DNA of 64,000 nucleotides from Candidatus Poribacteria bacterium (GCA_965208765.1 OZ242354.1:2921281-2985280), one strand, 5' to 3'. Positions 149-57,754 are shown, counted from the first letter of the stretch. The notes: generated from the sequence alone by a model not told the origin. A program made the numbers and translations.

Positions 149-214
149 CGCTCCAGAGGAGCGATATGTCTGTAGACACGTACGACACCCTTGGAGTCCG
201 CTCCAGCGGAGCGG
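149..214. repeat. Two REP palindromes on the left flank of the RAYT gene
   Basis: Perfect palindromes CGCTCCAGAGGAGCG (149-163) and CCGCTCCAGCGGAGCGG (198-214), each followed by ATATGTC or CATGTC. Confidence 0.7.
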
Positions 215-241
215 CATGTCAATAAAAGAGGTGATTTATCT

Positions 242-8917: not shown

Positions 8918-9232
8918 TTATGCTTGCTTTGCCATCTCGACAACAGAAAGCCGACATCCTAAAACATCAAGAATCACTCTCATTGTGTCAAGATGGGATT
9001 CATCCTCCCGCGACAGTATTTTTACGAGAAGGTCCGGAGCCGTGTGGGTTCGCCTTGCGAGTTCGTCTAGTCCGCCCTGTGCTTCGGCGATGCTCCGGAG
9101 AGCAATCAGGAATGCTAACGTATCACCATCGTTTTGATATTCTTCTAGTGCGGCTTGAAGATAACCGATAGCCTCTTCGCGGTTAGAAAGTCTTTCAATA
9201 AGATAATCGCGGTATTTTCTCATCTCTTTCAT
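8918..9232 (-). CDS. Addiction-module antidote protein (HTH, HigA-like, TIGR02684-type)
   Basis: YRDYLIERLSNREEAIGYLQAALEE...IALRSIAEAQGG matches the putative addiction module antidote family. Its start overlaps the stop of the killer gene. Confidence 0.7.
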   Translation of the reverse strand: MKEMRKYRDYLIERLSNREEAIGYLQAALEEYQNDGDTLAFLIALRSIAEAQGGLDELARRTHTAPDLLVKILSREDESHLDTMRVILDVLGCRLSVVEMAKQA

Positions 9233-9567
9233 TTTTGAGCCTCCTTGTAAGCCTGCCAATAGACTTTTGCGCGTTGGATGTCTCTGGTTTGCGAGGATTT
9301 TTCCCCACCGCAGAGCAGCAACACCATGGTATTATCTACCTCTCCAAAATAGATACGATAGCCTGGGCCAAACTGAAATCGGAGTTCAAACACTCCATTA
9401 CCTACAGGACGGTAATCGCCCAAATTACCGGACTCAAGGCGGTCTAGCCGGGCTTGAATTCTATTTAGTATCTTTAAGTCACGGACTGACTCAAACCAAT
9501 CGGTAAAAGGTTCCCTACCATTTTGGTCACGGTAAATTTGAATTTCTCTAGGACGTACATCAAGCAT
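9229..9567 (-). CDS. Addiction-module killer protein (RelE/HigB-like, TIGR02683-type)
   Basis: FTDWFESVRDLKILNRIQARLDRLESGNLGDYRPVGNGVFELRFQFGPGYRIYF is the canonical killer-protein signature. Confidence 0.75.
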   Translation of the reverse strand: MLDVRPREIQIYRDQNGREPFTDWFESVRDLKILNRIQARLDRLESGNLGDYRPVGNGVFELRFQFGPGYRIYFGEVDNTMVLLLCGGEKSSQTRDIQRAKVYWQAYKEAQK

Positions 9568-10856: not shown

Positions 10857-11431
10857 TTAATCCCACGTCTTCGCGGGTTTGACCGACTATTATTCTAACG
10901 GATTATGTCCGATGTTTACAATGGGAAATGAATTTGAGGGGAGGGTACCGTTGGAAACAGTGATTGTTGAAGGAATTTTGTCGTACTGGGAGTTTTATTG
11001 CACGGGATTTTCTATCGCTGTCGCCATCCACTACCTTGATTGCCGTTGGCGATTTCAAAAGCTGGTGGGCAATGCCCACCCTACGGGAAATTGTGCAAAA
11101 AAAGTGGGAGTTGGGCTAGGATTGACCTTCCGACAGAATTTCTTTGTCTGCACTGTGTTCAGACACAACCTCTCCTTTGCACAGGACATTAAAATGGCGG
11201 GCATCAGAATGCGCCGAAGAAAACGGGCGAGTGACAAGCGCCATGTTGTATGATGGAGGACGGATGTCTCTGGATGAGATCGGATAGAGCGGTTGCTTCG
11301 AGAAAAGCAGGATGTGCTTTCCGTCCGAGATCGTGGTGACTATCAGTTGACTTACAATAGAGCCCAACTCGGCGGCGTCGACACAATCTTGGAGTCGTAA
11401 AATGCCGCGAGTTGGGAACTCAGGTAATGCG

Positions 11432-43732: not shown

Positions 43733-45739
43733 ATGCCTGAAATGAAAAGGACGCACTATTGCGGAGAACTGCGGCTCGCCGACGCCGGAAAATCTGCCCG
43801 ACTAACCGGCTGGGTCGCCCGCCGTCGAGACCACGGCGGCGTCATATTCGTCGATCTACGCGATCGGACAGGAATCACGCAGGTCGTCTTCGATCCGGAG
43901 ATCGACCCCGAATCACACCAACTCGCACACCAGATTCGTAACGAATTTGTGTTGTGCGCCGCCGGGAGTGTACGCGAGCGCGTCGAAGGCGACCTATTGG
44001 CGCTGACGGATCGAAAGCATCAAGCCGACCTCGACGCCGGTCACCTCTCCGAGGATCTCAAATCTACGTTCGAAGACGATAGACATTCACTCTCGGCGGA
44101 CGTGACGGTTACCGTTCGAGAAACAGGGAGCCGATGGCTGATCACCGACAATGAGAGCAGCCGAACCTACGCGGCGAAAGTCGTTGACGACGCGCTCCAC
44201 ATCTATCAGGGCACCGTCAATCCTGAGCTTGACACCGGCGAAATCGAGCTGGCAACGAATCAGCTAGAGATCTTGAACCGCGCCGAAACGCCGCCGTTCC
44301 CCGTGGAAGACGAGATCGATACCGACGAAGAGATTCGCATGACGTACCGCTACATCGATCTCCGCCGTCCCAAGATGCAGAAGATGTTGTCCGTTCGACA
44401 CAAAGCCATGCTCGCCGCCCGGAAGTACATGGATGAGCAGGGGTTCCTTGAAATCGAAACACCAATCCTGATGAACAGCACGCCCGAAGGCGCGCGGGAC
44501 GTGCTCAGCCCAAGCCGACTCAATGCCGGCAACTTCTACGCGCTGCCGCAATCGCCGCAGCAGTTCAAGCAGATCCTGATGATGAGCGGCGTTGACCGCT
44601 ACTTCCAGATTCCCCGCTGTTTCCGCGATGAGGACACCCGCGCCGACCGGCAGCTCGAGTTCACGCAACTTGATCTTGAGATGTCCTTTGCGACAGTGGA
44701 TGAGGTCCTCGAAGTCAGCGAAGGATTGATGAAACGCATGTTTGAGGAAGCCGCGGGGATTCCGGTACCGACGCCGTTTCCGCGTATTTCCTACCACGAC
44801 TCCATGGCGCGGTTCGGGAACGACAAACCGGACACCCGCTTTGGGATGGAACTCTCCGACCTCTCCGATCTCGTCGCCGGCTGCGATTTCAAGGTGTTTA
44901 CCGGCGCCTTGGAACGGAAGGGGCAGGTGAAGGGGATCGCCGTGCCCGGCGGAGCGGCGTTTTCACGAAAAGAGATTGAGGACTTGACCGAATTTGTGGG
45001 GATCTACAAGGCGAGGGGATTGGCGTGGATAAAAGTGACCGAGAAGGGGTTCGAATCCAGCATCGTCAAATTCTTCAGCGAGGAGACGCTCAAAGCGGTG
45101 GCGGGACGGATGGAAGCAAAACCGGGAGACATCATGATGTTCGTCGCCGATCAGCCGAAGGTGGTTGCGGATGCCCTGTCAAACCTGCGGCTTCAACTCG
45201 GACGGCAACTCGATCTCATTGACGAGAGCCGATTCGACTTTCTCTGGATTGTCGATTATCCGCTATTCGATTGGAACGAAGACGAAAACCGTTACGAACC
45301 CTTCCACCACCTCTTTACGGCACCGACCGACGACAGTATTCCGCTGTTGGAGACCGATCCCGGTAACGCCCAATCGCAGCACTACGATCTCGTCATCAAC
45401 GGCATAGAGATTTGCAGCGGCAGCGTCCGAATCCATCGCTGGGACATCCAGCAAAAGGTGCTGGAACTCCTGAACATCGGTCCCGAAGAGGTCGAACGGC
45501 GTTACGGCTACTTCATCAAAGCGCTGCAGCACGGCACTCCGCCGCACGCCGGAATCGCCCCCGGGCTGGACCGCATCTTGATGCTGATGACCGGCGAGGA
45601 GAATATCCGAGAGGTCATCGCCTTCCCCAAAACCCAAAAAGGCTTATGCCTCCTCACCAGCGCCCCCTCCCAAGTCACGGACGAACAGTTGGAGGAGTTG
45701 TCAATTAAGGTTGATTTGGAGGATCAAGCGAGCGAATAG
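43733..45739 (+). CDS. aspS: Aspartate--tRNA ligase with an insertion of about 75 aa in the N-terminal anticodon-binding OB domain
   Basis: OB-fold (GWVARRRDHGGVIFVDLRD), class II motifs, GAD insertion domain and C-terminal GLDR. 668 aa against a typical 590. Confidence 0.9.
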   Translation: MPEMKRTHYCGELRLADAGKSARLTGWVARRRDHGGVIFVDLRDRTGITQVVFDPEIDPESHQLAHQIRNEFVLCAAGSVRERVEGDLLALTDRKHQADLDAGHLSEDLKSTFEDDRHSLSADVTVTVRETGSRWLITDNESSRTYAAKVVDDALHIYQGTVNPELDTGEIELATNQLEILNRAETPPFPVEDEIDTDEEIRMTYRYIDLRRPKMQKMLSVRHKAMLAARKYMDEQGFLEIETPILMNSTPEGARDVLSPSRLNAGNFYALPQSPQQFKQILMMSGVDRYFQIPRCFRDEDTRADRQLEFTQLDLEMSFATVDEVLEVSEGLMKRMFEEAAGIPVPTPFPRISYHDSMARFGNDKPDTRFGMELSDLSDLVAGCDFKVFTGALERKGQVKGIAVPGGAAFSRKEIEDLTEFVGIYKARGLAWIKVTEKGFESSIVKFFSEETLKAVAGRMEAKPGDIMMFVADQPKVVADALSNLRLQLGRQLDLIDESRFDFLWIVDYPLFDWNEDENRYEPFHHLFTAPTDDSIPLLETDPGNAQSQHYDLVINGIEICSGSVRIHRWDIQQKVLELLNIGPEEVERRYGYFIKALQHGTPPHAGIAPGLDRILMLMTGEENIREVIAFPKTQKGLCLLTSAPSQVTDEQLEELSIKVDLEDQASE

Positions 45740-45778
45740 TAGTCGTAGGGTGCGCACTGCGCACCAGCCTTTGGTCTT

Positions 45779-45807
45779 GTAGGGTGGGCGCCGCCCACCA
45801 TTTTTTT
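45779..45807 (+). terminator. Rho-independent terminator after aspS
   Basis: GTAGGGTGGGCGCCGCCCACCA followed by TTTTTTT. It is preceded by a second REP-like hairpin, GTAGGGTGCGCACTGCGCACC, at 45744-45768. Confidence 0.7.
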
Positions 45808-45819
45808 GCTTCCCGGTTT

Positions 45820-45990
45820 TTGTAGGGTGCGATCAAGAAGCGAATAGATAAACTGAGCGGATAGCGAAGGCGATAGAGATTCCCCGCGCACCAGCCTTTG
45901 ATCTTTTAGGGTGGGATCAAGCGACCGGATAGAATCAACCGAACGAATAGTGAGGGCGATAGTAAATCCTGCGCGATAGAGGTTTCTCGT
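45820..45990 (+). repeat. Two adjacent MITE-like units, the first inside a GGTGCG/CGCACC REP hairpin
   Basis: GTAGGGTGCG, then ATCAAGAAGCGAATAGATAAACTGAGCGGATAGCGAAGGCGATAGAGATTCCCC, then GCGCACCAGCC. This is followed by TAGGGTGGGATCAAGCGACCGGATAGAATCAACCGAACGAATAGTGAGGGCGATAGTAAATCCTGCGCGATAGAGG. Confidence 0.6.
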
Positions 45991-46064: not shown

Positions 46065-47237
46065 GTGGAGATAATCCTCATGGCTGAATACATGAAAGGG
46101 ATTAATCCCGCTATAATCAAGTGGGCAAGAGAACGCTCGGGATACACGCTTGAGGAAATCGCCGATTCCCTCAACAAGGACACTGAAACTATCTCCAACT
46201 GGGAGTCCGGGAGTTCTGCGCCGACCTATGCCCAGCTTGAAAAACTGGCTGACAAATGCAAACGCCCTATCGCCCTGTTTTTCTTCCCTGAAGTTCCCGA
46301 AGAGCCTGATTTGGTCAATCAGCTTGCGCTGCGAAGTTCAGAAATCGAGGCACTAAGCCCCAACATCCGCTTGCTGTTACGTCATGCTGCTGCCAGACAG
46401 ATTTCATTGATGGAACTGAATATGGGCGTGAACCCTGTCGAAACGAGAATCTTTCGCGATCTTCATGCCCGACTTGACGATTCCGTGACAGTATTAGCCC
46501 ACCAAGCCCGGGAATACTTGGAAGTCAGCGTTGAAACACAAGCAAGTTGGAAATCCTCGACAGAGGCGCTCGGGATCTGGCGAAACCGCATTGAGGACAA
46601 AGGTATCTTCGTTTTCAAGGACGCATTCCAGGATGATTTCGTTGATGGGTTTTCGCTCGTCCATGACCAGTTTCCTGTTATCTATCTGAACAATAGTCGG
46701 CCCCACGTCAGACAAATCTTCTCACTCTTTCATGAGTTGGCTCACCTGTTGCTCCGGCGTAACGGCATTACACGCGGCGTCAAAATTGGTGAGGAGAAAA
46801 TTGAGCGGTTTTGCAACCGATTTGCCGCTGAATTCTTGGTACCGTCGTCCGATTTGGAAACGAGGCTCGATTTTCCAGATTACGATGATGCCGCAATTTG
46901 GAAATTGGCACGGCACTATAAGGTTAGCCGTCCGGTTATTCTGCTCAAACTGATCGATCGACACATTCTGGAACCGACTGACTATGAGCGGATGACAAAA
47001 AAATGGAAAGAGGCGCAGGAATCCAAGCTTGAACAAGCTGCCGTAAGCAACAAACCTGGAGGAGGAGACTATTACAACACCCGCGCAGTGTACCTAGGAT
47101 ACAGATTCCTGGAGCTCGCCTTCAGCAGATATCATCAAGGTGGATGTTCTATTGAAGAACTCGCAGGGCATCTGAACGTTAAGGTAAAAAATTTGCCTGG
47201 GCTGGAAGACCGTCTATTGAGGAAAGCAACCGGCTAA
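46065..47237 (+). CDS. XRE-family HTH fused to an ImmA/IrrE-family zinc metallopeptidase (COG2856-like)
   Basis: N-terminal HTH (IIKWARERSGYTLEEIADSL) and the metallopeptidase HEXXH (FHELAHLLL). The stop overlaps the downstream ATG. Confidence 0.75.
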   Translation: MEIILMAEYMKGINPAIIKWARERSGYTLEEIADSLNKDTETISNWESGSSAPTYAQLEKLADKCKRPIALFFFPEVPEEPDLVNQLALRSSEIEALSPNIRLLLRHAAARQISLMELNMGVNPVETRIFRDLHARLDDSVTVLAHQAREYLEVSVETQASWKSSTEALGIWRNRIEDKGIFVFKDAFQDDFVDGFSLVHDQFPVIYLNNSRPHVRQIFSLFHELAHLLLRRNGITRGVKIGEEKIERFCNRFAAEFLVPSSDLETRLDFPDYDDAAIWKLARHYKVSRPVILLKLIDRHILEPTDYERMTKKWKEAQESKLEQAAVSNKPGGGDYYNTRAVYLGYRFLELAFSRYHQGGCSIEELAGHLNVKVKNLPGLEDRLLRKATG

Positions 47238-47704
47238 TGGCTTACGTATTTGACACCAACAGTTTTAGGGTGCTCGGCAACTACTATCCCGATCAATTCC
47301 CGACTTTTTGGAGACAATTCAATCAGGCGGTAATAGATGGGAAGATAACCTCCGTTAGGGAGGCTCACAGAGAATTAGAATCCCAGGTACAGCCTCCTTT
47401 GCTTGATTGGGTAAAAGACCATAAAAGTATTTTCACATCGCCCACCACAACGGAGACACGATTCATCACCGATATTTTCTCCATTAAGCATTTTCAAACA
47501 CTAGTGAGCGTGCAAAGCCGCTTAGAAGGTCATCCGTGCGCCGATCCGTTTATCATTGCAAAAGCAGAGTTCATAGAAGGATGCGTTGTCACAGAAGAAA
47601 CGTTGAAACCCAATGCCGCGAAAATCCCGAATGTTTGTGAGCGCTTTGAGATTGACTGTACAAATCTCCAAGGGTTCATGGAAAGAGAGGGTTGGACTTT
47701 CTAA
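47237..47704 (+). CDS. DUF4411 (PIN-like) domain protein, the common partner of HTH-ImmA proteins
   Basis: MAYVFDTNSFRVLGNYYP has a PIN-like N-terminal acidic motif. 155 aa, translationally coupled to the upstream gene (TAATG). Confidence 0.65.
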   Translation: MAYVFDTNSFRVLGNYYPDQFPTFWRQFNQAVIDGKITSVREAHRELESQVQPPLLDWVKDHKSIFTSPTTTETRFITDIFSIKHFQTLVSVQSRLEGHPCADPFIIAKAEFIEGCVVTEETLKPNAAKIPNVCERFEIDCTNLQGFMEREGWTF

Positions 47705-47768
47705 TCTCGCTCGGAATCAAAAATCACCAGCTACTTAATGCTAACAGCTTGGAGGAAGAGAAACACCT

Positions 47769-49499
47769 ATGGCACGAAACAGCCGCACCTCCCAATCCCC
47801 CGAAGTCCAAGACTACCGCCACGACGACGCCACCCGACGAAACAACCCGCCCGCCGCCATCGCTTCCCAAGGAAGAATCCGCGAAACACCCAAGCAGGAA
47901 TACGCCTACAACCCCCACCTGCCGCCCATTCTCCGATTCGACGACACCGGCAACGCCGACCAAATCCCCGAACTCCTCGAAAAGGCAAAGAACGGACTCT
48001 CCGACGACGAAATCAAAATCCTAGCCGACGCCTTGAAAGACCGCACCCCCTGGCTCGAATGGGCGGGCAAACAGGAGGCGAAATCCTTCGCCGTAGATCC
48101 GGTGGCGCTGCATATCCACGAACGCTTGAGCGCAAAAGCTATCTTGAGAACCGCGGCGCGCCAAGATGTTCAGCGGGAGCTATTTGCTGATCCGCAGCAG
48201 GAATACCACGAAGCCGTGCGGTTCTACCAGCACGACGTGGATTGGTCGAACCGCCTCATCTTGGGCGATAGCCTCACCGTGATGACTTCCCTCGCGCACC
48301 GCGAGGACCTTGCCGGCAAGGTGCAGATGATTTACATCGACCCGCCCTACGGCATCAACTTCCGATCAAACTTTCAGCCCACCGTCTTTCAGCGTGATGT
48401 GAAAGACAAAGCGAGCGACCTAACCCGCGAACGAGAACAGATTAAAGCCTACCGTGACACCTGGACGCTCGGCGTCCACTCCTACCTCGCCTACCTGCGC
48501 GACCGTCTGATAGTTGCTAGAGACCTCCTGACCGACAGCGGTAGCATCTTCGTGCAGATTGGTGATGAGAATGTCCATCGCGTGCGATGTCTGATGGACG
48601 AGGTATTTGGGAGCGAGAATTTTGTTCGAGAAATCGTTTTCACGAAGACAACAGGACTTGGACAAGTATTGCTCAACAGCGTCAACGATTATGTGCTTTG
48701 GTACGCCAAGAACCGTGAGGCTGTGAAGTACCGACAGGTCTATTTTGAGAAAGTAGCCGGTACAGCGGGTGCCAGCAGGTATAAAAATAGTGATGATAAT
48801 GGGAGGTTGTATTCTACTACCGATCTGAGATCCCAAACTGGTACAGAACGATCACGATTCCCGATTATGTTTCAAGACAAACCTTACACCGTCTCCGGGA
48901 CACGAGGATGGTCAACAAACGAGATTGGGGTGGAACGAATTGTCGCCTCAGAACGTGTCGTTGTTGAAGGAAATACCCTTAGATTCAAGAGATACTTAGA
49001 TGATTATCCTGTACTACCAACAAATAATGTATGGGCAGATGTCGGTGGGATTCAAAGCCGCACTGATCCTAAGATATATGTCGTCCAGACAACTAACAAA
49101 GTTATCGAACGCTGTCTCCTCATGACCACCGACCCCGGCGATCTCGTCCTCGATCCCACTTGTGGCGCCGGCACCACCGCCTACGTCGCGGAGGGTTGGG
49201 GCAGAAGGTGGATAACCATTGACACCAGCCGTGTAGCGATTGCCCTGGCACGTCAACGCCTCTTGACGGGCAGTTTCGACTATTTCGAACTCCAAGACGA
49301 ATCGAATGGTGTCGCGGGCGGATTCATCAATAAAACCGTCCCGCACATCACACTGAGAAGCATCGCCCAAAACACCGCGCTCGACCCCATTTTCGCGCAA
49401 CATGAACCCATTCTCCAAGACAAGTTGGAGACGCTGAACCGCGCTTTGGGGGCGGTAACGCCACAGATTCGGACGGCGCTGGGAACTTCCCGCAAGTGA
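47769..49499 (+). CDS. mod: Type III restriction-modification Mod subunit (beta-class N6-adenine DNA methyltransferase)
   Basis: Motif IV, MIYIDPPYGINF, lies N-terminal to motif I, LDPTCGAGTTAYVA. 576 aa, with a Type III res gene downstream. Confidence 0.8.
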   Translation: MARNSRTSQSPEVQDYRHDDATRRNNPPAAIASQGRIRETPKQEYAYNPHLPPILRFDDTGNADQIPELLEKAKNGLSDDEIKILADALKDRTPWLEWAGKQEAKSFAVDPVALHIHERLSAKAILRTAARQDVQRELFADPQQEYHEAVRFYQHDVDWSNRLILGDSLTVMTSLAHREDLAGKVQMIYIDPPYGINFRSNFQPTVFQRDVKDKASDLTREREQIKAYRDTWTLGVHSYLAYLRDRLIVARDLLTDSGSIFVQIGDENVHRVRCLMDEVFGSENFVREIVFTKTTGLGQVLLNSVNDYVLWYAKNREAVKYRQVYFEKVAGTAGASRYKNSDDNGRLYSTTDLRSQTGTERSRFPIMFQDKPYTVSGTRGWSTNEIGVERIVASERVVVEGNTLRFKRYLDDYPVLPTNNVWADVGGIQSRTDPKIYVVQTTNKVIERCLLMTTDPGDLVLDPTCGAGTTAYVAEGWGRRWITIDTSRVAIALARQRLLTGSFDYFELQDESNGVAGGFINKTVPHITLRSIAQNTALDPIFAQHEPILQDKLETLNRALGAVTPQIRTALGTSRK

Positions 49500-49515
49500 G
49501 TGGAAGGAGTGGGAG

Positions 49516-50598
49516 GTGCCGTTTGATACCGACCCCGACTGGCCTTCAGAGTTGAAGGGTGCCTTGACAGATTACCGCGAGGCGTGGCGGGAAAAGATGG
49601 ACGAGGTGAACGAATGTATCGCCGCCGCCTCCGACGGCGAGGAGTTGGTCGATCAGCCCGAGGTGGACCGAAAGAAACTGAGGGTGAGCGGTCCCTTCAG
49701 CGTGGAGGCGGTGCAACCCGCCGAAGAATCGCTCTATGACGATTCACCGATTGGGGGTGAACCTGACGAGGAACTTGATACATTCGAGTCCGAAGGAAGC
49801 GAATCGGCAAACGCCGAAGCCTACCTTGACGGCATGATTCGTCTGCTCCGAAACGATGGCGTCCGCTTTCCCGATGACTGCACCATGAAATTCGCTAGGC
49901 TTGACCCGCTTGAAGCCGGTGTTCTCCATGCAGAAGGCAAATGGACAGATGACGCCGAAGATCGGCTTATTGCCGTAGTGTTCGGACCTCAGCACGGTCC
50001 GGTGACGGCGATGCAGGTTGAGGAGTGCCTGCCGATTGCATCGCGCCGCGGCTATGACGACTTGGTTTTTGCGGGTTTCGGTTTCGATGGCGCCGCCCAA
50101 GCCGCCATTCAGGACGATCCGAATCCCAGAGTCCGGGTGCACATGGCACACATCAACCCCGACGTAACAATGGGCAGCTTGCTCAAAGAGACCCCCACCA
50201 GTCAACTCTTTACCGTGTTCGGCGAACCCCGCACAAAACTTGAAAAGAGGGAGGATGGTGAGTATATCGTCGAGATGGAGGGTGTCGATGTCTACAATCC
50301 CGTTGACAACATGGTGACCTCCGAAGGGAGCGACAGGGTGGCGGCATGGTTCATTGACTCCGACTACGACGGCAGAACCTTCTGCATCACCCAAGCCTTC
50401 TTTCCCGACAAGAAAGCCTGGAGCAAAATTGCCCGCGCCCTGAAAGGCGTCATTGACGAGGATCGGTTTGAGAGTTTCAGCGGCACCACATCCTTGCCGT
50501 TTCCCGCAGGCGAACACCGGCGTGTTGCCGTTAAGGTCATCGACCCCCGCGGAAACGAGGTCATGCGGGTGCACAACCTCGGTGAGCAGGGATACTGA
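49516..50598 (+). CDS. Hypothetical acidic protein inside the RM locus, function unknown
   Basis: 360 aa, GTG start with a GGAGG SD 5 nt upstream, and a Glu/Asp-rich N-terminal region. No motif recognised. It lies 17 nt after the mod stop. Confidence 0.45.
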   Translation: MPFDTDPDWPSELKGALTDYREAWREKMDEVNECIAAASDGEELVDQPEVDRKKLRVSGPFSVEAVQPAEESLYDDSPIGGEPDEELDTFESEGSESANAEAYLDGMIRLLRNDGVRFPDDCTMKFARLDPLEAGVLHAEGKWTDDAEDRLIAVVFGPQHGPVTAMQVEECLPIASRRGYDDLVFAGFGFDGAAQAAIQDDPNPRVRVHMAHINPDVTMGSLLKETPTSQLFTVFGEPRTKLEKREDGEYIVEMEGVDVYNPVDNMVTSEGSDRVAAWFIDSDYDGRTFCITQAFFPDKKAWSKIARALKGVIDEDRFESFSGTTSLPFPAGEHRRVAVKVIDPRGNEVMRVHNLGEQGY

Positions 50599-50621
50599 TG
50601 TTGAGGCGTGGCAGGAGGTAG

Positions 50622-50771
50622 ATGATGGACAAGAACCAAGACATCTTTGACGGATTCACTGTCAGCCTGTTCCTTGATGAATACGGCGATTATCTTGCGC
50701 ATTTCGTCGAACTCCCCAGTGTCTCACGCGGTAAGAAATGGGCTCAGAGTCTAGACAATCAATCCTCTTGA
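50622..50771 (+). pseudogene. N-terminal remnant of a hicB antitoxin gene
   Basis: MMDKNQDIFDGFTVSLFLDEYGDYLAHFVELPSVS is near-identical at the nucleotide level, over about 45 nt, to the start of the intact hicB at 51085. It then diverges and stops. Confidence 0.5.
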
Positions 50772-50849
50772 GATCAAAAATGCGGAGGCATTAGTTGCGA
50801 GAGTCAAGGTACGCTTGATTATCCTCACGTAACAGGATAGAATTATGGC

Positions 50850-51092
50850 ATGAATCGAAGAGATGCTTTGCTTGACAAGGCTAGGCGGAACCCAAATGGA
50901 TTGCAATTCAGAGAGTTTGAGCAACTCATGCGTCAATGCGAGTGGACACAACGCCGCCAGCGTGGTAGCCACCGGGCTTGGTATTCGCCTAAAGGATACA
51001 GGCTCATGGTCCAACCCAAGCGATCAATGGCTAAGGCTTACCAAGTTCGTCAATTCCTCATAAAATATAATCAGGAGGCAGAAGATGGCTAA
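50850..51092 (+). CDS. hicA: HicA-family toxin (YcfA-like mRNA interferase)
   Basis: 80 aa. EFEQLMRQCEWTQRRQRGSHRAWYSPKGYRLMVQPKRS is the HicA dsRBD-like signature. Confidence 0.75.
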   Translation: MNRRDALLDKARRNPNGLQFREFEQLMRQCEWTQRRQRGSHRAWYSPKGYRLMVQPKRSMAKAYQVRQFLIKYNQEAEDG

Positions 51093-51456
51093 GAACCATG
51101 ATGATTTTGATGGATTCGCAATTAACGTTTTTCTTGACGAAGATGGCGATTATCTTGCGCATTTCGTCGAACTCCCCAATGTCTCGGCTTTCGGACCAAC
51201 ACCCGCTCAAGCACTGGTTGAATTGAAAACAGCGTGGGAATTGATGAAAGAATGTTACCAGGAAGATGGTGTCCCTGTCCCTAAAGCACCGTCGCGAGAA
51301 GGATACGAGGGGCCGTTCAACGTTCCCGTTGATGCCCGACTTTATCATGAATTAGCAAAAGAAGCGGCACGAGCGGAGATGAGCCTTTACGCATTTGTAG
51401 CGGAAAAACTAGCGAAACCGACTGCCCGCGACTCAAATAGCGCGAGAGTAACATAA
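51085..51456 (+). CDS. hicB: HicB-family antitoxin
   Basis: FDGFAINVFLDEDGDYLAHFVELPNVSAFGPTPAQALVELK is the HicB RNaseH-like fold, with a C-terminal RHH-like DNA-binding tail. It overlaps hicA by 8 nt. Confidence 0.75.
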   Translation: MAKNHDDFDGFAINVFLDEDGDYLAHFVELPNVSAFGPTPAQALVELKTAWELMKECYQEDGVPVPKAPSREGYEGPFNVPVDARLYHELAKEAARAEMSLYAFVAEKLAKPTARDSNSARVT

Positions 51457-52508
51457 TGCCTGAAAAAAAATCTCATGACCTACATGATTTCATGCGCCAA
51501 CTAAGCCAGGAGATGGCTGCAGAATACGACCGCATCCAAAAGCGTGCACCCGAAGACCCAGGGACCGCTGGCGACCAAGGCGAGGCAAATTGGGCTGAAC
51601 TGTTACGTGGATGGCTCCCTCGCACCTATGAGGTTGTTACAAAGGGACGCATTATTAGCGCAGATGGGCGCACAAGTCCACAGGTTGACGTTTTAGTTCT
51701 AAAGGATGTATATCCAAAGAAATTGTTAGACAAGAAACACTACCTTGCTGCAGGAGTTGCCGCTGCCTTTGAGTGCAAAACCACTCTAAAATCTGCACAT
51801 ATTGCGGAGGCAGTACAAACCTGTGTGGAAATTAAGAACTTGTATCCAGTTCGTGAAGGATCGCCCTACAAAGAGTTGCACGCCCCCATTGTCTATGGGT
51901 TGTTAGCGCATTCTCATTCTTGGAAGGGGCCTAACTCAACGCCTGAAGAGAATATTCTGCAGAACCTGAGAGGCTCCGACGGGCTCTTCGTCACACATCC
52001 GCGTTTAAGTCTTGATATGCTATGCGTTGCCGACCTTGGAGCATGGACATTGTCAAAGATGTCGCCCAATCCACTGCTGGTTCTCGAAGACGAATCGTTG
52101 ATCTCCCAAGAAACGCCACCGTGCAGACCAGTGTGGAGTGCGTATATGGAACATACAACCTGCGTTGAAAATCAAGTCGACTATTTCACTCCGATTGGTG
52201 TTCTGATTTCCTATCTGTCAAAACTGATTGCATGGGAAGCCCCAACGTTGCGAAATCTCGTAGATTATTATCTGGCTGCACCCATTGGGGGATCCAGTAG
52301 GGGAGTGCCCCGCAAGTGGGATAGTTCAATATATAGTTCAGGGCTTCGACGCGCTGCTCAAAAGCAGACATTCGTAACTGGTGAAGCCAAGACATGGGAT
52401 GAATGGAACATGGTTTTTGGCCCCGGATTAGTTAAACATTTGAAATTTCAACTAAACGTACCGGAATCAAACCGCAGCGAACGCGAAATCAACACAGAAA
52501 CAGGATAA
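51456..52508 (+). CDS. Putative PD-(D/E)xK-fold nuclease with an uncharacterised C-terminal domain of about 230 aa, translationally coupled to hicB
   Basis: A helix carrying E (GEANWAELL), a beta-strand QVDVLVLKD and FECKT together form the E...hD...ExK arrangement. The ATG overlaps the hicB TAA. Confidence 0.45.
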   Translation: MPEKKSHDLHDFMRQLSQEMAAEYDRIQKRAPEDPGTAGDQGEANWAELLRGWLPRTYEVVTKGRIISADGRTSPQVDVLVLKDVYPKKLLDKKHYLAAGVAAAFECKTTLKSAHIAEAVQTCVEIKNLYPVREGSPYKELHAPIVYGLLAHSHSWKGPNSTPEENILQNLRGSDGLFVTHPRLSLDMLCVADLGAWTLSKMSPNPLLVLEDESLISQETPPCRPVWSAYMEHTTCVENQVDYFTPIGVLISYLSKLIAWEAPTLRNLVDYYLAAPIGGSSRGVPRKWDSSIYSSGLRRAAQKQTFVTGEAKTWDEWNMVFGPGLVKHLKFQLNVPESNRSEREINTETG

Positions 52509-52828
52509 CTTGGCAGAGAATAATGCGGCAGAAACCCGCGAACTGTAGCTGCAAGGTCCGCCGGTCCTCTGTTGGTGTGCACTACACTACTATTGTGCTC
52601 GCGTGCTTCGGAATACCTTAGTCTGAATCTCGGATTACTCGGACGTCACGGAATAAAAACCGATAGAACCCTTGAACGAAAAACCGGTGTAATCGGGTAA
52701 TCCGCGTGGGTCCAGGTCTCAGACAATCTTTGTGTGGGTATCCATCTTGAACAAGGGCAACAAACGCAACGTCATCACATCTTTCGAGACAGTGTTAACG
52801 ACATTGCGTCGACAAATCAAGCTCCCTC

Positions 52829-55805
52829 ATGAACCTAAACCAACTCGACATCCCAATCCAACCCGTTGAACAGCCCATCCTGTGCAGCCCCTACGCAGAA
52901 CCGAGCGCCCACTGGGTCTACGACACCGAGACCGGCGAAGCCATCCGGCAACCCGGACGCCGTGACGCCGGCTACTGGTACAAAACCGAGCGCACGGGCA
53001 GCGGGCAACTTCAGATTTTCCGCGAAGAGGAATGGGACGATTTGCCTTTGGTGAATAGACTACGCGACGATGTCCGAAGATGGAGAGAATCGAACTACCG
53101 AAACGCCACCAATGTAACGCGTGAACTCCTGAACCATTGGAGGCGCGAAGATAGGGAGCGGCGGCTGTTTTTCTGCCAGCTTGAAGCCGTTGAGACGGTT
53201 ATTTGGCTTGCCGAGATTCGCAGCGGGGGCAAACGCGTTAGTTTTATCCCAAATTCACTGATGACGATCGAAACAAGCTGGCTGATCCACCCGACGACAC
53301 TGACCTTCCCGAACTCATTCGCTACGGGTGCAAGATGGCGACCGGCAGCGGCAAAACCGTGGTGATGGCGATGCTGATTGCGTGGGCGTTCTGCAACCGC
53401 GGCAAAGTGCCCTCCGACGAGCGCTTTCCGAAAGCCGCGCTAGTCGTCTGCCCGAACCTGACCATCAAAGAACGGCTTCTGGTGCTCCGCCCGAATCGTC
53501 GGACAACTACTACGATGCGTTTGAACTCATTCCGACGAAACTCCGCCCGCTGCTCAACGGCGGCAAGGTGCTGGTGACGAACTGGCATCAATTCGCCTTG
53601 GAATCCCCGCAGGCGGAGGGCGGCTCCACCTACTCCGTCGTGAATAAAGGCGAGGAGACGCCGGATGCATTTGCGCAGCGTGTACTGGGCGAACTCTATG
53701 ACCGCGCGCCAATCATGGTGCTCAACGATGAGGGGCACCACGCCTACCGCCCTGCGCCGGTTGAGGAACAGCTATCCGCCGAGGAGCAGAATGAACGCCA
53801 AGATGCCACCGTTTGGATTAGCGGTCTGGACCGGATAAACTCCGCCTGCGGCGTCCGCTTCTGCGTCGATCTCTCCGCCACGCCCTTCTATATACACGGC
53901 AGCGGCCACCCGGAAGGTACCCCCTTCCCTTGGCTCGTCAGCGATTTCGGATTGGTGGACGCCATTGAGAGCGGCATCACCAAGATTCCGCGCTTGCCCG
54001 TCAGCGACACCACCGGTCGTCCCGAACCCAAATACTTCCGTCTGTGGCGCGCGATTAACGACCAAATCCTACCGGCTGATCGATTGCCAGGTAAGGCGAA
54101 GAAGCCCAAACCGGAAGCCGTGTACCGTGAAGCCGAGGACGCGCTAAACACTCTCGCCAGCCAGTGGGTGGAACGCTTTGGCTACATCCGGCAGGCATCC
54201 GATGCCAAAGACAAAACGCCGCCCGTCATGATTATCGTCTGCGACAATACCGACATTGCCGAACATTTCTTCCGAAAAATCTCCGGCGAGGTGGAAGTTG
54301 AAGACCTTGCAGAAAACGGTGGGAAGAGAAAAAAGAAAAAGGCGACCAAGACGGCATACGGACAAGGTACGGTGTTTCCCGACTTGCTGTCGAACGAACG
54401 GGACGTGCTGCGAACCCTGAGAATTGACAGCAAGATGTTGGCTGACGCGGAAAGCGACGAAACGGGAAAGAACAAAGCCCAAGCTGCCGAGGATTTGCGT
54501 CAGATTGTGGCGACGATTGGAAAGCCCGGCAAACCCGGCGAACAGGTGCGATGCGTCGTGTCCGTGGCGATGTTGAACGAAGGCTGGGACGCCAACAACG
54601 TCACGCATATCCTCGGACTGCGAGCCTTCACCAGCCAACTCCTCTGTGAACAGGTGGTTGGCAGGGGTTTGCGGCGCATGAACTACACCCCCGATCCGGA
54701 AACCGGCTTGTTGACCGAAGAATATGTCGATGTGTACGGTATCCCGTTTTCCGTCATCCCGTTCAAAGGGCGCCGCCCCGGCGCATCTGCGCCTGACCCT
54801 CCGAAGAATCATTTACGCGCCATGCCCGAACGGAAGGACTACGAGATACGTTTTCCGGTTGTGGAGGGGTACGTCTTTGCGCTCCGAAAGAACGAAATCA
54901 AGGCGGACATCAAGTCAATGGAGCCGCTCTTCGTTGAACCTGAACAGACACCCACTGCCGTTTTCGTCAAACCCGCTGTCGGCTACGAAACCGGTAATCC
55001 TTCCGCCTTGGGTCCCGGACAATTCGAAGAGCAAAATCGCCAAGAATATTACAGGACGACGCACATTCAAGCCATCAAGTTCGAGATTGCGCGGCGAATT
55101 GTCCTGAATTTGGTCGGCGGGGCCAATTTTCCACGCGATAGTAGGAGTGATCCCAAGCTTCGGTTTCAATCCCGACACCGTCTATTCCCTCAAGTCTACA
55201 GATTGGTTGATGCTTATGTCGAAATAAAAGTCGACTTTCGCGAGTGTAATCCGTGCGAGATTGGTCAAGAAAAATACACCAATCGCATAGTGGAACGCCT
55301 GACGGCGGCAATCCAACCTAACGAAGCAGAAGGTGAAACCCCGCTGCTGCCCATCCGGAATCGTTACAAACCCATCGGCACATCGGCGGAAGTGGATTTC
55401 ATGACTACCCGATCCTGCCACGGCACGGAACGCAGCCAAATCAACCAAGTCGTTCTGGATACCGAGAGGTGGGAACGTTCATCCTGCTTCCGTCTGGAGC
55501 AATCCGAGGTTGTTGACTACTATGTCCGCAACGACCACCTTGGATTCGGCATTCCATACGAATACACCGACGTGTCCCACCACTTTGAGCCCGATTTTAT
55601 TGTCCGACTCAAGAACGATGTCAACCTAATCGTGGAAATTAAGGGTCACGAAACCGATCAGGAACTTGCCAAGTATGCAGGCGCGGAACGATGGGTGTCC
55701 GCCGTCAACAACTGGAATGAGCTTGGAAAATGGGATTTCCACGTGTGCCGCGACCCGCAGCTGCTGGAGCGTGAGCTAATGTACATCGTCCAATCGGGCG
55801 AGTGA
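52829..55805 (+). pseudogene. res: Type III restriction enzyme Res subunit (SF2 helicase plus C-terminal endonuclease), disrupted by two -1 frameshifts
   Basis: Three consecutive frames: 52829-53365, 53335-53577 (Walker A, MATGSGKT) and 53328-55805 (DEGH box, helicase motifs, C-terminal PD-ExK IVEIKGHE). The frame changes occur at TTTTATCCCAAATT (about 53240-53262) and CCGCCCGAA (about 53485-53495). Confidence 0.8.
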
Positions 55806-55960
55806 GCGAAAGATCGAACAGTAAGAGCGATCAACCGAGCGGAAAGTGCGGGCGATAGAAATTCTGTTCGTTAGTGGTTCCGTGATCGTTGACGATTCAC
55901 TCGTTTGATTTTCACGGGCGCTTTCAAAGGCTGGTGCGCATTGCGCACCCTACAGATTTG
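55800..55960 (+). repeat. Degenerate MITE-like unit followed by a reverse-orientation REP hairpin
   Basis: GATCGAACAGTAAGAGCGATCAACCGAGCGGAAAGTGCGGGCGATAGAAATTC..., then GGCTGGTGCGCATTGCGCACCCTAC. Confidence 0.5.
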
Positions 55961-56134: not shown

Positions 56135-57754
56135 ATGAATCAAACGACTCACGAAGCGCCTTCCGAAAACGGCGGAGGGCACAACATCCTCATAGGCATC
56201 ATAGTCGCCATTGTCGTCGGAATCATTATCGGTGGTTGGCTGCCCGGCGTCGCCGCGAAGACTCATGTCCTCGGCGAAATCTTCCTAAACTTACTGAAGA
56301 TGATTGTCGTCCCGCTCGTCATGCTCTCAATGGTTGTCGGAATCACCGGATTGGGCGATATACGCAACCTCGGCCCCATCGGCGGGCGCACCGTTCTCTA
56401 CTACATGGCAACGACCGGAATCTCGGTGCTGATTGGCATCATCTTGGTCAACGTAATCCAGCCCGGCAAGGGCATTTCGCACGGTGAAGAACGCCCCGAT
56501 TTGGCGTATACCCTTAGCGGCGATGGGAACCGCACCGTCAATCTGACAAACGGCAAGTGGAACAAGACACGGTACAGCGAAAAATATATGCTGATGCTGT
56601 CGGATCAGCAGGTCGAGGGTGAAATCGTCTCTCTCTCCGAAATGTCGGCGACGGTAAAATTCTGGAAAAATATGGCTGAAGGCGTATTTCACATCGCAAC
56701 CGATACAGGCGAGCATCTACCGTTCCGGCGCGAAAATGGAGAGGTCGTTTCCGCCGACCCCGAACTTTCCCAGAATGGACAAGGTCTCCAAATAAAGTTG
56801 CCCGTTGCCAAGGAAGTGCGCGGCAAAGAGGAACGCGACATGGGCGGCACGCTGAAAGAGGTGCTGCTTGGCGACAAATCGACGGGAAGAGAGGGCATGA
56901 TTCCACGCAATGTCTTCAATGCGATGGTGCGGATGGAAATTTTGCCCCTGATATTTTTCTCGTTACTGATTGGCGCCACGCTTTCAGTCCTCGGCGAACG
57001 GGGGCGGCCCACCATAGCGGTTATTTCCGGCTTAAATGACGCCGTGATGCGACTGGTGCACTGGATAATGGTTCTCGCGCCTGTCGGCATCTTTGGACTC
57101 GTCGCCGGACGCATCGGTCATGCCGGGGGATTCAAGGAATTTCTGCCGGAACTGATGGCGGTGGGCAAATACAGTTTCACCGTCGTGCTTGGTCTAGGGG
57201 TGCACGGTCTTATTATATTGCCGCTTATCCTCCTGCTGATTGCCCGTCGGAATCCTATACGGTACATAAAGGGCATGAGTACGGCACTGCTGAACGCTTT
57301 CTCGACTGCGTCCTCCTCCGCCACGCTGCCGTTGACAATGAGGGCGGTGGAACACGAAAATAAGGTCTCCAATCGGACAGCGAGTTTTGTCCTGCCGCTG
57401 GGCGCCACAATCAACATGGACGGTACCGCGCTCTACGAAGCCATTGCAGCCATGTTCATTGCGCAGGTGTACGGGATTGAGCTCGGGCCAGTGCAACAGA
57501 TGGTTATCTTTCTGACGGCAACCCTGGCGGCGATTGGCGCGGCTGGAATCCCGGAAGCCGGGCTTGTCACCATGGTCGTCGTCCTTAAAGCTGTTGGCTT
57601 GCCGATTGAAGGTATCGCGCTAATACTCACGATTGATTGGTTGCTCGACCGATTCCGGACGACGGTCAATGTGTGGGGCGACAGTGTCGGTGCCGGCGTC
57701 ATCGAATCGCTCGAAAACCGTGGTAATTCGGAAGGTGCGAAGTCTAGCGAATAA
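56135..57754 (+). CDS. Dicarboxylate/amino acid:cation symporter (DAACS/GltP family) with a large extra loop after TM3
   Basis: SLC1/GltP motifs (NMDGTALYEA, AAIGAAGIPEAG). 539 aa against a typical 420-440. The insert of about 165 aa starts at HGEERPDL. Confidence 0.85.
   Translation: MNQTTHEAPSENGGGHNILIGIIVAIVVGIIIGGWLPGVAAKTHVLGEIFLNLLKMIVVPLVMLSMVVGITGLGDIRNLGPIGGRTVLYYMATTGISVLIGIILVNVIQPGKGISHGEERPDLAYTLSGDGNRTVNLTNGKWNKTRYSEKYMLMLSDQQVEGEIVSLSEMSATVKFWKNMAEGVFHIATDTGEHLPFRRENGEVVSADPELSQNGQGLQIKLPVAKEVRGKEERDMGGTLKEVLLGDKSTGREGMIPRNVFNAMVRMEILPLIFFSLLIGATLSVLGERGRPTIAVISGLNDAVMRLVHWIMVLAPVGIFGLVAGRIGHAGGFKEFLPELMAVGKYSFTVVLGLGVHGLIILPLILLLIARRNPIRYIKGMSTALLNAFSTASSSATLPLTMRAVEHENKVSNRTASFVLPLGATINMDGTALYEAIAAMFIAQVYGIELGPVQQMVIFLTATLAAIGAAGIPEAGLVTMVVVLKAVGLPIEGIALILTIDWLLDRFRTTVNVWGDSVGAGVIESLENRGNSEGAKSSE

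What the first reader, a model, noticed from the sequence alone, without database searches (positions are those of the whole stretch)
46065..55805. Composite defense island: HTH-ImmA/DUF4411, Type III mod, an unknown 360-aa gene, hicAB plus nuclease, and a frameshifted Type III res
A Type III RM gene pair (mod 47769-49499, res 52829-55805) has been split by about 3.3 kb. The inserted DNA carries an unknown acidic 360-aa ORF, a hicB remnant, an intact hicA-hicB, and a 350-aa putative PD-(D/E)xK protein. An HTH-ImmA/IrrE peptidase with its DUF4411 (PIN-like) partner sits immediately upstream. The island begins right after a cluster of REP/MITE repeats at 45744-45990 and ends at another at 55800-55960. 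This arrangement is typical of defense islands and is a good place to look for new immunity components. The two unassigned genes at 49516-50598 and 51456-52508 are the candidates.
Basis: partly seen in the sequence, partly recalled or inferred. Interest (0 to 1): 0.7.

Follow-up and report, generated by a model that had tools for sequence, protein, structure and literature searches.

The report
Decayed restriction operon carrying defence cargo
This is an inherited bacterial anti-virus gene cluster in a probable sponge-symbiont (Poribacteria) genome: a broken restriction-modification operon that carries a toxin-antitoxin pair and a NucC-like DNA-cutting enzyme between its two genes, and every part belongs to a known family.

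Summary
Two readings change.

1. The "unknown 360-aa gene" (49516-50598) is the C-terminal ~40% of the Type III-like methyltransferase. A 71-bp deletion between CGGCGCTG repeats cut it off. The cargo between mod and res is therefore 2.2 kb, not 3.3 kb.

res carries two 1-nt deletions, not one, so both R-M genes are broken.

The cargo is not a one-off insertion:
- Mod-(HicA)-HicB-DUF6602-Res recurs in 17 related, mostly Poribacteria, loci.
- Four of these lie at the same aspS-symporter site.
- Loci found through Res hold other cargo in the same gap: GmrSD, NERD, SLFN/AlbA_2, DUF5131 and unknown proteins.

The mod-res gap therefore behaves as a variable cargo bay.

Upstream, HTH-M78/DUF4411 is a RosmerTA-like pair. 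The flanking REPs are genome-wide repeats.

All components are known kinds, so interest is moderate to low. The cargo-bay pattern and the HicB-nuclease coupling are the leads worth following.

The parts
45744..45990 (.). Left REP-like repeat cluster (palindromes GGGTGCGCACTGCGCACC and GGGTGGGCGCCGCCCACC, plus 35-nt units)
   Evidence: The same core palindrome occurs at 4 other sites in the window, and both inside and outside the module in sister genomes.
46065..47237 (+). Fused HTH (Xre-type) and M78/ImmA-IrrE metallopeptidase, HELAH motif present. RmrA-like antitoxin and/or CapH-CapP-like regulator.
   Evidence: Pfam Peptidase_M78 2e-21 and HTH_3 4e-12. PADLOC RmrA 2e-28, capP 4e-16, capH 5e-6. 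Its stop overlaps the next start by 1 nt.
47237..47704 (+). DUF4411, a PIN-like (VapC-group) predicted toxin
   Evidence: Pfam DUF4411 8e-29. No PADLOC family matched. The literature describes DUF4411 downstream of HTH-DUF955 fusions (PMC5499597).
47769..49499 (+). mod, 5' part (576 codons): N6_N4 methyltransferase with DPPY and SAM motifs and a hypervariable target-recognition region at aa 281-440
   Evidence: Pfam N6_N4_Mtase 7e-32. PADLOC MTase_III PDLC03632 6e-137. Identity profile.
49474..49481 (+). Junction of a 71-bp deletion in mod, lying within the retained copy of the direct repeat CGGCGCTG. It shifts the frame.
   Evidence: Nucleotide alignment with L004, L027, L035 and L001. tblastn of 8 intact Mods shows about 22 residues missing and a change from frame 3 to frame 1 at 49480-49487.
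49516..50598 (+). mod, 3' part (the '360-aa unknown ORF'). Homology to intact Mods starts at 49480 in this frame.
   Evidence: PADLOC PDLC03632 positions 621-981/983, E 5e-41. phrog_67 DNA methyltransferase positions 537-740/743, E 5e-27. 73-89% identity to the C-termini of intact Mods.
50612..50725 (+). hicB 5' remnant
   Evidence: 81% identical to 51072-51185. The same remnant is present in L004, L028 and L035.
50850..51092 (+). hicA toxin (80 aa)
   Evidence: Pfam HicA_toxin 29.8 bits, cut-off 27. PHROG toxin families.
51085..51456 (+). hicB-like antitoxin (123 aa). It overlaps hicA by 8 nt and the nuclease gene by 1 nt.
   Evidence: The best PDB hits are HicB (E 0.055). PHROG HicB-like 1e-4 and 5e-4. 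Pfam HicB 15 bits, below the cut-off. Position.
51456..52508 (+). DUF6602 / NucC-fold PD-(D/E)xK endonuclease (350 aa) with catalytic D78, E106, K108
52829..53245 (+). res fragment 1 (frame 2). It ends at a 1-nt deletion between 53245 and 53246 (TTTTAA to TTTTA).
   Evidence: NF046055 BPTD_3080-family REase positions 1-135..
53246..53489 (+). res fragment 2 (frame 1), containing the Walker A motif MATGSGKT. It ends at a second 1-nt deletion between 53489 and 53490.
   Evidence: NF046055 positions 159-215..
53490..55805 (+). res fragment 3 (frame 3): the rest of the SF2 helicase and the C-terminal PD-ExK nuclease motif (EPDF...EIK)
   Evidence: NF046055 positions 211-966, 714 bits. 95% identity to the L004 Res. 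The motif is invariant in A2.
55828..55953 (.). Right REP-like repeat cluster, inverted relative to the left one

Best explanation
The stretch is a vertically inherited composite defence locus in a Poribacteria-type genome. It is built on a Type III-like restriction-modification operon: a beta-class Mod of about 1000 aa plus a BPTD_3080-family Res.

Shown:
- Both R-M genes are broken. mod carries a 71-bp deletion between 8-nt direct repeats. This produces the 576-aa ORF and the 360-aa 'unknown' ORF.
- res carries two 1-nt deletions, one just before and one after its Walker A motif.
- The 2.2-kb mod-res gap holds a hicB remnant, hicA-hicB and a NucC-fold DUF6602 endonuclease. The nuclease start overlaps the hicB stop.
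- In relatives the same gap holds this or other defence-type cargo.
- An HTH-M78 gene with a DUF4411 PIN-like partner lies upstream.

Inferred:
- When intact, the operon restricted unmethylated DNA. Here that function is lost, and the surviving parts act on their own.
- The DUF6602 protein is a Mg-dependent DNA endonuclease that is latent until triggered. It acts as a single-gene, Damona-type abortive-infection effector. Its trigger is probably not cA3 made by a neighbouring gene.
- HicA is an mRNA interferase held in check by HicB. Because hicB and the nuclease gene are translationally coupled, HicB autoregulation probably also sets nuclease expression.
- HTH-M78/DUF4411 is a protease-gated toxin-antitoxin pair of the RosmerTA type.
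For: - Mod split.
- Res in three frames, with intact homologues elsewhere.
- NucC fold and catalytic residues. NucC features are taken from bioRxiv 10.1101/694703.
- DUF6602 as the domain of the validated single-gene system Damona.
- Solitary full-length homologues on plasmids, including a 5.4-kb plasmid, and next to housekeeping genes in other phyla.
- Recurrent Mod-(HicA)-HicB-DUF6602-Res layout in L001-5, 7, 10, 11, 13, 15, 17, 19, 27-29, 35 and 117.
- Same aspS/symporter locus in L004, L007, L028 and L035.
- Alternative cargo in Res-ascertained loci.
- HTH-M78/DUF4411.
- Other long ORFs in the window (up to 1063 codons) are intact.
Against: - No function was tested here.
- The two 1-nt res lesions could be assembly errors. 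A sister assembly, L004, shows a frameshift in the essential aspS gene.
- The split Mod keeps both catalytic motifs in its first ORF, and the second ORF has a plausible start. Residual methylation cannot be excluded.
- HicB is supported only by weak sequence scores.
- Tyr81 of the NucC cA3 pocket is conserved as Y86. A nucleotide ligand supplied from elsewhere in the genome is therefore not excluded.
- Similarity to the actual Damona protein could not be measured.
Confidence: 0.8

Rival explanations
1. The res frameshifts, and possibly the mod deletion, are sequencing or assembly artefacts. On this view the R-M system is functional in the organism.
For: - The window comes from a 6.49-Mb long-read-style contig.
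- Sister MAGs show scattered single frameshifts, including one in essential aspS in L004, and in different island genes.
- Beyond the lesions the reading frames are clean. ResC is 95% identical to L004.
Against: - A 71-bp loss bounded by an 8-nt direct repeat is a typical real deletion, not a base-calling error.
- The two 1-nt losses are not in long homopolymers: A2 to A1, and next to a run of 3 C.
- No other long ORF in the 64-kb window is interrupted.
- Three lesions all fall in the two R-M genes, which is what joint inactivation predicts.
Confidence: 0.15
2. The DUF6602 nuclease is functionally tied to the R-M complex. It would be a latent second-line effector that fires when the R-M enzyme is inhibited, as the PrrC anticodon nuclease is tied to EcoprrI, or it would act as an accessory nuclease subunit.
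For: - It sits between mod and res, on the same strand, in 17 loci spanning Mod identities of 59-70%.
- The gene order in the gap is collinear across loci.
- The PrrC precedent for an effector embedded in an R-M operon (PMC1484252).
Against: - Those loci were found through DUF6602, so the association is biased by ascertainment.
- Loci found through Res lack it: 0 of 4 Poribacteria loci and 0 of 80 metagenome loci.
- The family is mostly solitary, including on small plasmids.
- Here it stays intact although the R-M genes are broken.
- Res keeps its own nuclease motif.
Confidence: 0.12
3. HicB-like plus DUF6602 form their own toxin-antitoxin-like pair. HicB would be the nuclease's inhibitor or regulator, and HicA would be optional.
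For: - hicB abuts or overlaps the nuclease gene in about 14 loci.
- Only 5 of these also have hicA.
- A single 434-aa HicB::DUF6602 ORF exists in L117, and another in P0063.
- hicA-hicB-DUF6602 also occurs away from any R-M genes, in L016. L006 has hicB-DUF6602 without hicA.
Against: - HicB equally precedes a different gene, the ~390-aa protein, in L119 and L121.
- DUF6602 has no HicB in any locus outside Poribacteria or on the plasmids examined.
- Orphan antitoxins are the expected residue of toxin loss.
- hicA is intact here.
Confidence: 0.15
4. The HTH-M78 protein is mainly a stress-responsive switch for the downstream operon, a fused CapH/CapP-like regulator, rather than the antitoxin of DUF4411.
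For: - PADLOC capP (4e-16) and capH (5e-6) both hit the same protein.
- HTH-M78 directly precedes Mod without DUF4411 in L003, L005 and L017.
Against: - The best PADLOC hits are RmrA, the RosmerTA antitoxin (2e-28).
- The 1-nt overlap with DUF4411, and the same pair occurring without R-M genes in L025, fit a toxin-antitoxin pair.
- The two roles are not mutually exclusive.
Confidence: 0.3
5. One reading: a recent 3.3-kb insertion split an R-M pair and brought in two novel immunity genes, and the whole island is delimited by REP/MITE elements.
For: The gap and the flanking repeats exist.
Against: - The 360-aa ORF is part of Mod.
- The 350-aa ORF belongs to DUF6602/NucC.
- The layout is shared by sister genomes at the same locus.
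- The REPs are genome-wide and are absent from modules in other clades.
Confidence: 0.04

Closest known systems
NucC (cA3-activated endonuclease of CBASS and type III CRISPR; PDB 6p7p, 6q1h, 7zgv)
   Same: - The catalytic D...ExK motif is kept.
- The adenine-stacking Tyr81 is kept as Y86.
   Different: - It is about 80-110 aa longer.
- Arg53 of the cA3 pocket is Thr57.
- The gate loop is 6 residues shorter and carries a family-specific RxGTPYxEL motif.
- No CD-NTase or Cas10 gene was seen in any examined neighbourhood.
- The family is usually a solitary gene.
Damona (single-gene DUF6602 anti-phage system from Vibrio cholerae integron cassettes; bioRxiv 10.1101/2024.07.02.601686)
   Same: The DUF6602 domain, the PADLOC hits to Cas PD_DExK and the CBASS endonuclease models, and the single-gene lifestyle in most lineages.
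   Different: - Sequence similarity to the Damona protein itself was not measured.
- Here the gene sits inside an R-M operon and is translationally coupled to hicB.
Type III restriction-modification, BPTD_3080-family Res (NCBIfam NF046055) with the long Mod (PADLOC PDLC03632)
   Same: - Mod with the motif IV - TRD - motif I order.
- Res with SF2 helicase motifs and a C-terminal PD-ExK motif.
- Both genes on the same strand.
   Different: - Both genes are disrupted.
- 2.2 kb of cargo lies between them.
- Mod is about 1000 aa, with a C-terminal region of about 400 aa that has no Pfam domain.
PrrC-EcoprrI (latent anticodon nuclease encoded inside a Type Ic R-M operon)
   Same: An effector nuclease gene is embedded between R-M genes (PMC1484252).
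   Different: - This is a DNA endonuclease of a different fold, inside a Type III-like operon.
- There is no evidence of physical or regulatory coupling.
- The cargo is interchangeable with unrelated genes.
RosmerTA / HTH-DUF955-PIN three-component toxin-antitoxin systems, and CapH-CapP regulators
   Same: A fused HTH and M78 peptidase is followed by an overlapping small PIN-like gene.
   Different: - DUF4411 matches no PADLOC RmrT model.
- HTH-M78 also occurs directly upstream of Mod without DUF4411.
HicAB type II toxin-antitoxin
   Same: Toxin-first overlapping bicistron. HicA scores above the Pfam cut-off.
   Different: - HicB matches only weakly.
- In relatives hicB often lacks hicA and is coupled, or even fused, to the nuclease gene.

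Membership tests
Type III R-M (BPTD_3080-family Res with long beta-class Mod) | Mod with an N6/N4 methyltransferase domain, DPPY and SAM motifs, and a central variable target-recognition region | tested here: met
   Pfam N6_N4_Mtase 7e-32. PADLOC MTase_III 6e-137. Residues 281-440 are 12-50% identical between flanks that are 80-97% identical.
Type III R-M (BPTD_3080-family Res with long beta-class Mod) | Res with SF2 helicase motifs and a C-terminal PD-(D/E)xK nuclease | tested here: met
   The three fragments cover NF046055 positions 1-135, 159-215 and 211-966. Walker A MATGSGKT and EPDF...EIK are present. The largest fragment scores 714 bits against a cut-off of 800.
Type III R-M (BPTD_3080-family Res with long beta-class Mod) | Both genes intact and able to make full-length proteins | tested here: not met
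   A 71-bp deletion in mod and two 1-nt deletions in res. Eight homologues are single ORFs.
Type III R-M (BPTD_3080-family Res with long beta-class Mod) | Methylation of a specific site and ATP-dependent restriction | not testable with these tools
   Needs methylome data or biochemistry.
NucC | NucC fold, including the embellishments beyond the restriction-enzyme core | tested here: met
   [not shown]
NucC | IDx30EAK catalytic motif (D73, E104, K106) | tested here: met
   Present as VD78...E106-C-K108. These residues are invariant in 98 family members.
NucC | cA3 pocket (R53, Y81, T226) and gate-loop latch (H136, Y141) | tested here: not met
   R53 aligns to T57, and the family consensus is variable there. 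Y81 aligns to the conserved Y86. The gate loop is 6 residues shorter with no His at the H136 position. T226 could not be mapped.
NucC | Genetic linkage to a CD-NTase or a type III CRISPR Cas10 | tested here: not met
   Neither appears among the Pfam-labelled neighbours, nor in the annotated plasmids. The rest of the source genome was not searched.
Damona (DUF6602 single-gene defence) | DUF6602 domain | tested here: met
   Pfam PF20247, 87 bits against a cut-off of 27.
Damona (DUF6602 single-gene defence) | Sequence relatedness to the validated V. cholerae protein, and anti-phage activity | not tested
   The sequence is not in the text held for the paper or its supplement. Activity needs an experiment.
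HicAB | HicA toxin domain | tested here: met
   PF07927, 29.8 bits against a cut-off of 27.
HicAB | HicB antitoxin domain | tested here: inconclusive
   Pfam HicB 15 bits, below the cut-off of 21. The best PDB hits are HicB at E 0.055. PHROG HicB-like 1e-4. The gene position fits.
RosmerTA | RmrA antitoxin (HTH plus M78 peptidase) | tested here: met
   PADLOC RmrA models up to 2e-28. Pfam domains. HELAH motif in the sequence.
RosmerTA | A recognised RmrT toxin next to RmrA | tested here: not met
   DUF4411 matches no PADLOC family at E <= 0.01. It is a PIN-like predicted toxin according to PMC5499597.

The most novel reading that the evidence does not exclude
The interval between mod and res of BPTD_3080-family Type III-like R-M operons may be a dedicated cargo bay, refilled by recombination. 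Alternative effectors would be swapped between strains and expressed with the operon. The effectors seen are the NucC-like DUF6602 nuclease, GmrSD, NERD, SLFN/AlbA_2, the DUF5131 pair, and unknown proteins of about 152, 390 and 465 aa. Within this bay, the DUF6602 nuclease would be a NucC derivative that no longer depends on cA3. It would be held latent by HicB or by the R-M complex and released when these are disturbed, as a back-up to restriction.
Probability: 0.12. Interest if true: 0.65.

Novelty: new member of a known kind. Interest (0 to 1): 0.35.

Why it matters
For annotation, the result removes a false 'unknown gene', which is a Mod fragment. It also shows that this R-M system is dead while its passengers survive.

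For defence biology there are two usable leads.

1. A large, strongly conserved family of NucC-fold nucleases of about 320 aa:
- It had 1019 representatives at 50% clustering.
- It lives without any cyclase partner, on plasmids and in many phyla.
- It would be a good test of how a NucC-type enzyme is controlled without cA3.

2. The mod-res gap of this R-M family often carries interchangeable defence genes. 29 of 68 metagenome loci have at least 0.5 kb between the two genes. That gap is a cheap place to mine for new effectors, including the unassigned proteins of about 152, 390 and 465 aa.

Tried and rejected
- The first AF2 run, with 22 close homologues, gave pLDDT 39 and was discarded. A 98-sequence alignment built from the representative search gave a usable model.
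- An exact look-up of the window's own DUF6602 protein found no recorded contig.
- The supplement of the Damona paper did not contain the name or a sequence.
- The phage collection held no homologue.
- Pfam, NCBIfam and PDB sequence searches gave nothing for the Mod C-terminal region beyond the methyltransferase models.
- N-terminally extended DUF6602 proteins showed no extra Pfam domain.
- Promoter and terminator scans were at chance level.
- A REP-bounded mobile island was rejected. The palindrome occurs elsewhere in the window and is missing from modules in other clades.
- Phase variation or programmed frameshifting in mod or res was rejected. No simple-repeat tract lies at any of the three lesions.

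Full report
**1. What is in the sequence**

Between aspS (43733-45739) and a sodium:dicarboxylate-type symporter (56135-57754), all sizeable ORFs lie on the + strand:
- 46065-47237 (390 aa)
- 47237-47704 (155 aa)
- 47769-49499 (576 aa)
- 49516-50598 (360 aa)
- 50850-51092 (80 aa)
- 51085-51456 (123 aa)
- 51456-52508 (350 aa)
- 52829-53365, 53335-53577 and 53328-55805, three overlapping frames

The hicB remnant is real: 50612-50725 is 81% identical to 51072-51185. So are the repeat clusters at both ends.

**2. The 360-aa 'unknown' ORF is the end of mod**

- The 576-aa ORF and the 360-aa ORF match one PADLOC Type III methyltransferase model of 983 positions. The first matches at E 6e-137. The second matches positions 621-981 at E 5e-41.
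- The second ORF also matches the C-terminus of PHROG DNA-methyltransferase family 67.
- In eight related loci the corresponding gene is one open frame of 983-1034 codons. Those proteins align to the window in frame 3 up to 49481-49487, then in frame 1 from 49480. About 22 residues are missing at the switch.
- The nucleotide alignment shows that the window lacks 71 bp present in all four compared homologues. The loss lies between two copies of CGGCGCTG, and sequence on either side is nearly identical to L004. This is a microhomology-type deletion that shifts the frame.
- The first ORF keeps the DPPY and SAM-binding motifs. Residues 281-440 are only 12-50% identical to homologues, between flanks of 80-97%. 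That pattern is expected for a Type III Mod target-recognition region.

**3. res has two lesions**

- The three res frames match NCBIfam NF046055 (BPTD_3080-family restriction endonuclease) at positions 1-135, 159-215 and 211-966.
- Intact homologues of about 990-1000 aa align without missing residues across frame changes at about 53245 and 53490.
- The alignment shows single-base losses: TTTTAA to TTTTA at 53245/53246, and one base before CCC at 53489/53490.
- The first lesion lies upstream of the Walker A motif, so no internal start could give an active helicase.
- Beyond the lesions the frames are clean. Fragment 3 is 95% identical to L004, so the inactivation is recent.
- Assembly error cannot be excluded for the two single-base losses, because sister MAGs show scattered frameshifts, even in aspS of L004. 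Against that, the sites are not long homopolymers, and no other long ORF in the window is broken. The 71-bp deletion in the partner gene is also not a base-calling type of error. I put real decay at about 80-85%.

**4. The 350-aa protein is a NucC-fold nuclease**

- Sequence searches: Pfam DUF6602 at 8e-25. PADLOC PD_DExK, CBASS 'Endonuclease (NucC)' and NucC models. PDB NucC chains at 1e-10.
- Family size: the protein belongs to a large, strongly conserved family of about 320 aa. There were 2079 hits, the top 120 at 60-73% identity, and 1019 representatives at 50% clustering.
- Structure: a model built on 98 diverse members has pLDDT 91 and pTM 0.89.
  - The top 14 Foldseek hits are all NucC (E 2e-12).
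- Catalytic and ligand residues, using the residues defined for NucC in bioRxiv 10.1101/694703 and the profile alignment:
  - Catalytic D73, E104 and K106 correspond to D78, E106 and K108, which are invariant in the family.
  - Tyr81 corresponds to the conserved Y86.
  - The phosphate-binding Arg53 corresponds to Thr57.
  - The gate loop is six residues shorter and carries a family-specific RxGTPYxEL motif.
- Neighbourhood: no CD-NTase or Cas10 gene appears in any neighbourhood I could label.
- Lifestyle: full-length homologues are solitary genes on plasmids, including a 5.4-kb Psychrobacter plasmid that otherwise carries only replication and mobilisation genes, an antitoxin and two hypothetical genes. 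In other phyla they lie next to housekeeping genes.
- Literature: DUF6602 is the domain of Damona, a single-gene anti-phage system from Vibrio cholerae integron cassettes. I could not obtain that sequence for a direct comparison.

**5. The cargo is shared and interchangeable, not a one-off insertion**

The genome scan seeded with DUF6602 returned mostly Candidatus Poribacteria MAGs, which indicates the likely origin of the window.
- tblastn with the window's proteins shows Mod-(HicA)-HicB-DUF6602-(variable)-Res in L001-5, 7, 10, 11, 13, 15, 17, 19, 27-29, 35 and L117. HTH-M78, with or without DUF4411, often lies in front.
- Four of these loci (L004, L007, L028, L035) have the same flanks as the window. 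AspRS is 94-98% identical and the symporter 87-97%. The locus is therefore inherited in this clade.
- Because those loci were found through DUF6602, I also sampled through Res.
  - Of 80 metagenome loci, none has DUF6602 or HicB.
  - Among the 68 that hold both genes, in either order, 29 have at least 0.5 kb between them.
  - ORFs in those gaps include GmrSD, NERD, SLFN/AlbA_2 and a DUF5131 pair.
- Four Poribacteria loci chosen through Res (L118-L121) also lack DUF6602. They carry GmrSD_N and recurrent unassigned proteins of about 152, 390 and 465 aa, with HicB-like genes or fragments in three of the four (L118, L119, L121). Gene order is largely conserved.
- L003, L117, L120 and L121 share flanks but differ in cargo. 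In L027 and L035, short copies of the Mod 3' end and the Res 5' end lie inside the gap. This suggests exchange by recombination through the conserved gene ends.
- The mod-res gap therefore behaves as a variable cargo bay, and DUF6602 is one of its alternatives.

**6. hicAB**

- HicA passes the Pfam cut-off.
- HicB is supported by several weak hits: PDB HicB at E 0.055, PHROG at 1e-4, and Pfam at 15 bits. Its position also fits, with an 8-nt overlap with hicA.
- Its stop overlaps the nuclease start by 1 nt.
- In relatives a HicB-like gene often abuts DUF6602 without hicA. In L117 the two are one 434-aa ORF.
- HicB also precedes the ~390-aa gene where DUF6602 is absent, and DUF6602 elsewhere has no HicB.
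- I therefore read hicAB as an ordinary embedded toxin-antitoxin pair whose autoregulated promoter probably also drives the nuclease gene. I keep 'HicB controls the nuclease' as a rival.

**7. The upstream pair**

- The 390-aa protein is HTH_3 plus Peptidase_M78 with a HELAH motif.
- Its best PADLOC hits are RmrA, the RosmerTA antitoxin, at 2e-28. It also hits capP and capH.
- DUF4411 is a PIN-like predicted toxin described downstream of such fusions (PMC5499597). It matches no PADLOC RmrT model.
- HTH-M78 also occurs directly in front of Mod without DUF4411 in L003, L005 and L017. A regulatory role for the operon is therefore possible as well.

**8. The flanking repeats**

- The core palindrome occurs seven times in the window, four of them far from the island.
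- In sister genomes it lies both inside and outside the module. It is absent from modules in other clades.
- An IS200/RAYT-like ORF at 191-703 may be related to these repeats.
- The repeats do not delimit a mobile element.

**9. Verdict**

- All parts fall into known families, the R-M core is decayed, and nothing here requires a new mechanism.
- The comparative pattern (a cargo bay, and a cyclase-less NucC-like family sometimes coupled or fused to HicB) is a reasonable lead but is unproven.
- Interest is 0.35.

Noticed in passing
L004:11343-12494, L007:11424-12614, L011:11108-12253, L119:7722-8897, L121:7803-8990 (absent from the window): A recurrent protein of about 390 aa, with an N-terminal signal or transmembrane segment and a coiled-coil-like start, sits just upstream of Res in many Poribacteria modules. 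It follows either DUF6602 or HicB. It has no significant Pfam match.
   Followed up: partly
L002:3353-4762, L027:6738-8120, L119:5907-7304; L003:9365-9823, L120:8329-8817, L121:6322-6804: Two further unassigned cargo families, of about 465 aa and about 152-162 aa, recur in the mod-res gap in a conserved order. They may be remnants of a larger ancestral operon.
   Followed up: partly
L027:9493-9600 and 11318-11479; L035:12516-12831: Short duplicated pieces of the Mod 3' end and the Res 5' end lie inside the mod-res gap. They look like scars of cargo exchange by recombination through the conserved gene ends.
   Followed up: no
window 48609-49088 (Mod aa 281-440): This segment of mod is hypervariable (12-50% identity) between flanks that are 80-97% identical. 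It is the likely target-recognition domain and implies different specificities among sister genomes.
   Followed up: partly
window 191-703: An ORF beginning ...YTKLYIHIVFSVRGRQPLI resembles an IS200/IS605-type Y1 transposase or a REP-associated tyrosine transposase. It could relate to the REP-like palindromes scattered through the window. This was recognised by eye only.
   Followed up: no
window 7786-8469 (-) and 9229-9567 (-): A small N4/N6-type DNA methyltransferase-like ORF (SPPY motif) and a RelE/HigB-like ORF lie elsewhere in the window. They suggest further defence or toxin-antitoxin genes. Both were judged by eye only.
   Followed up: no
window 43733-45739: AspRS is 668 aa, with an insert of roughly 75 aa in its N-terminal part compared with what I recall for typical bacterial enzymes. 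The insert is conserved at 94-98% identity in sister genomes.
   Followed up: no
L004:2202-4200, L007:13293-15607, L028:6092-7665 and 10001-10958, L035:2664-3816: Each sister genome at the aspS locus has a frame break in a different gene: aspS, res, mod plus DUF6602, and HTH-M78. This is either mosaic decay of the island or indel noise in these long-read MAGs.
   Followed up: partly
L120:4369-8139: One relative has a 1256-aa Mod that carries a DUF559 (Vsr-like endonuclease) domain according to the precomputed Pfam list.
   Followed up: no
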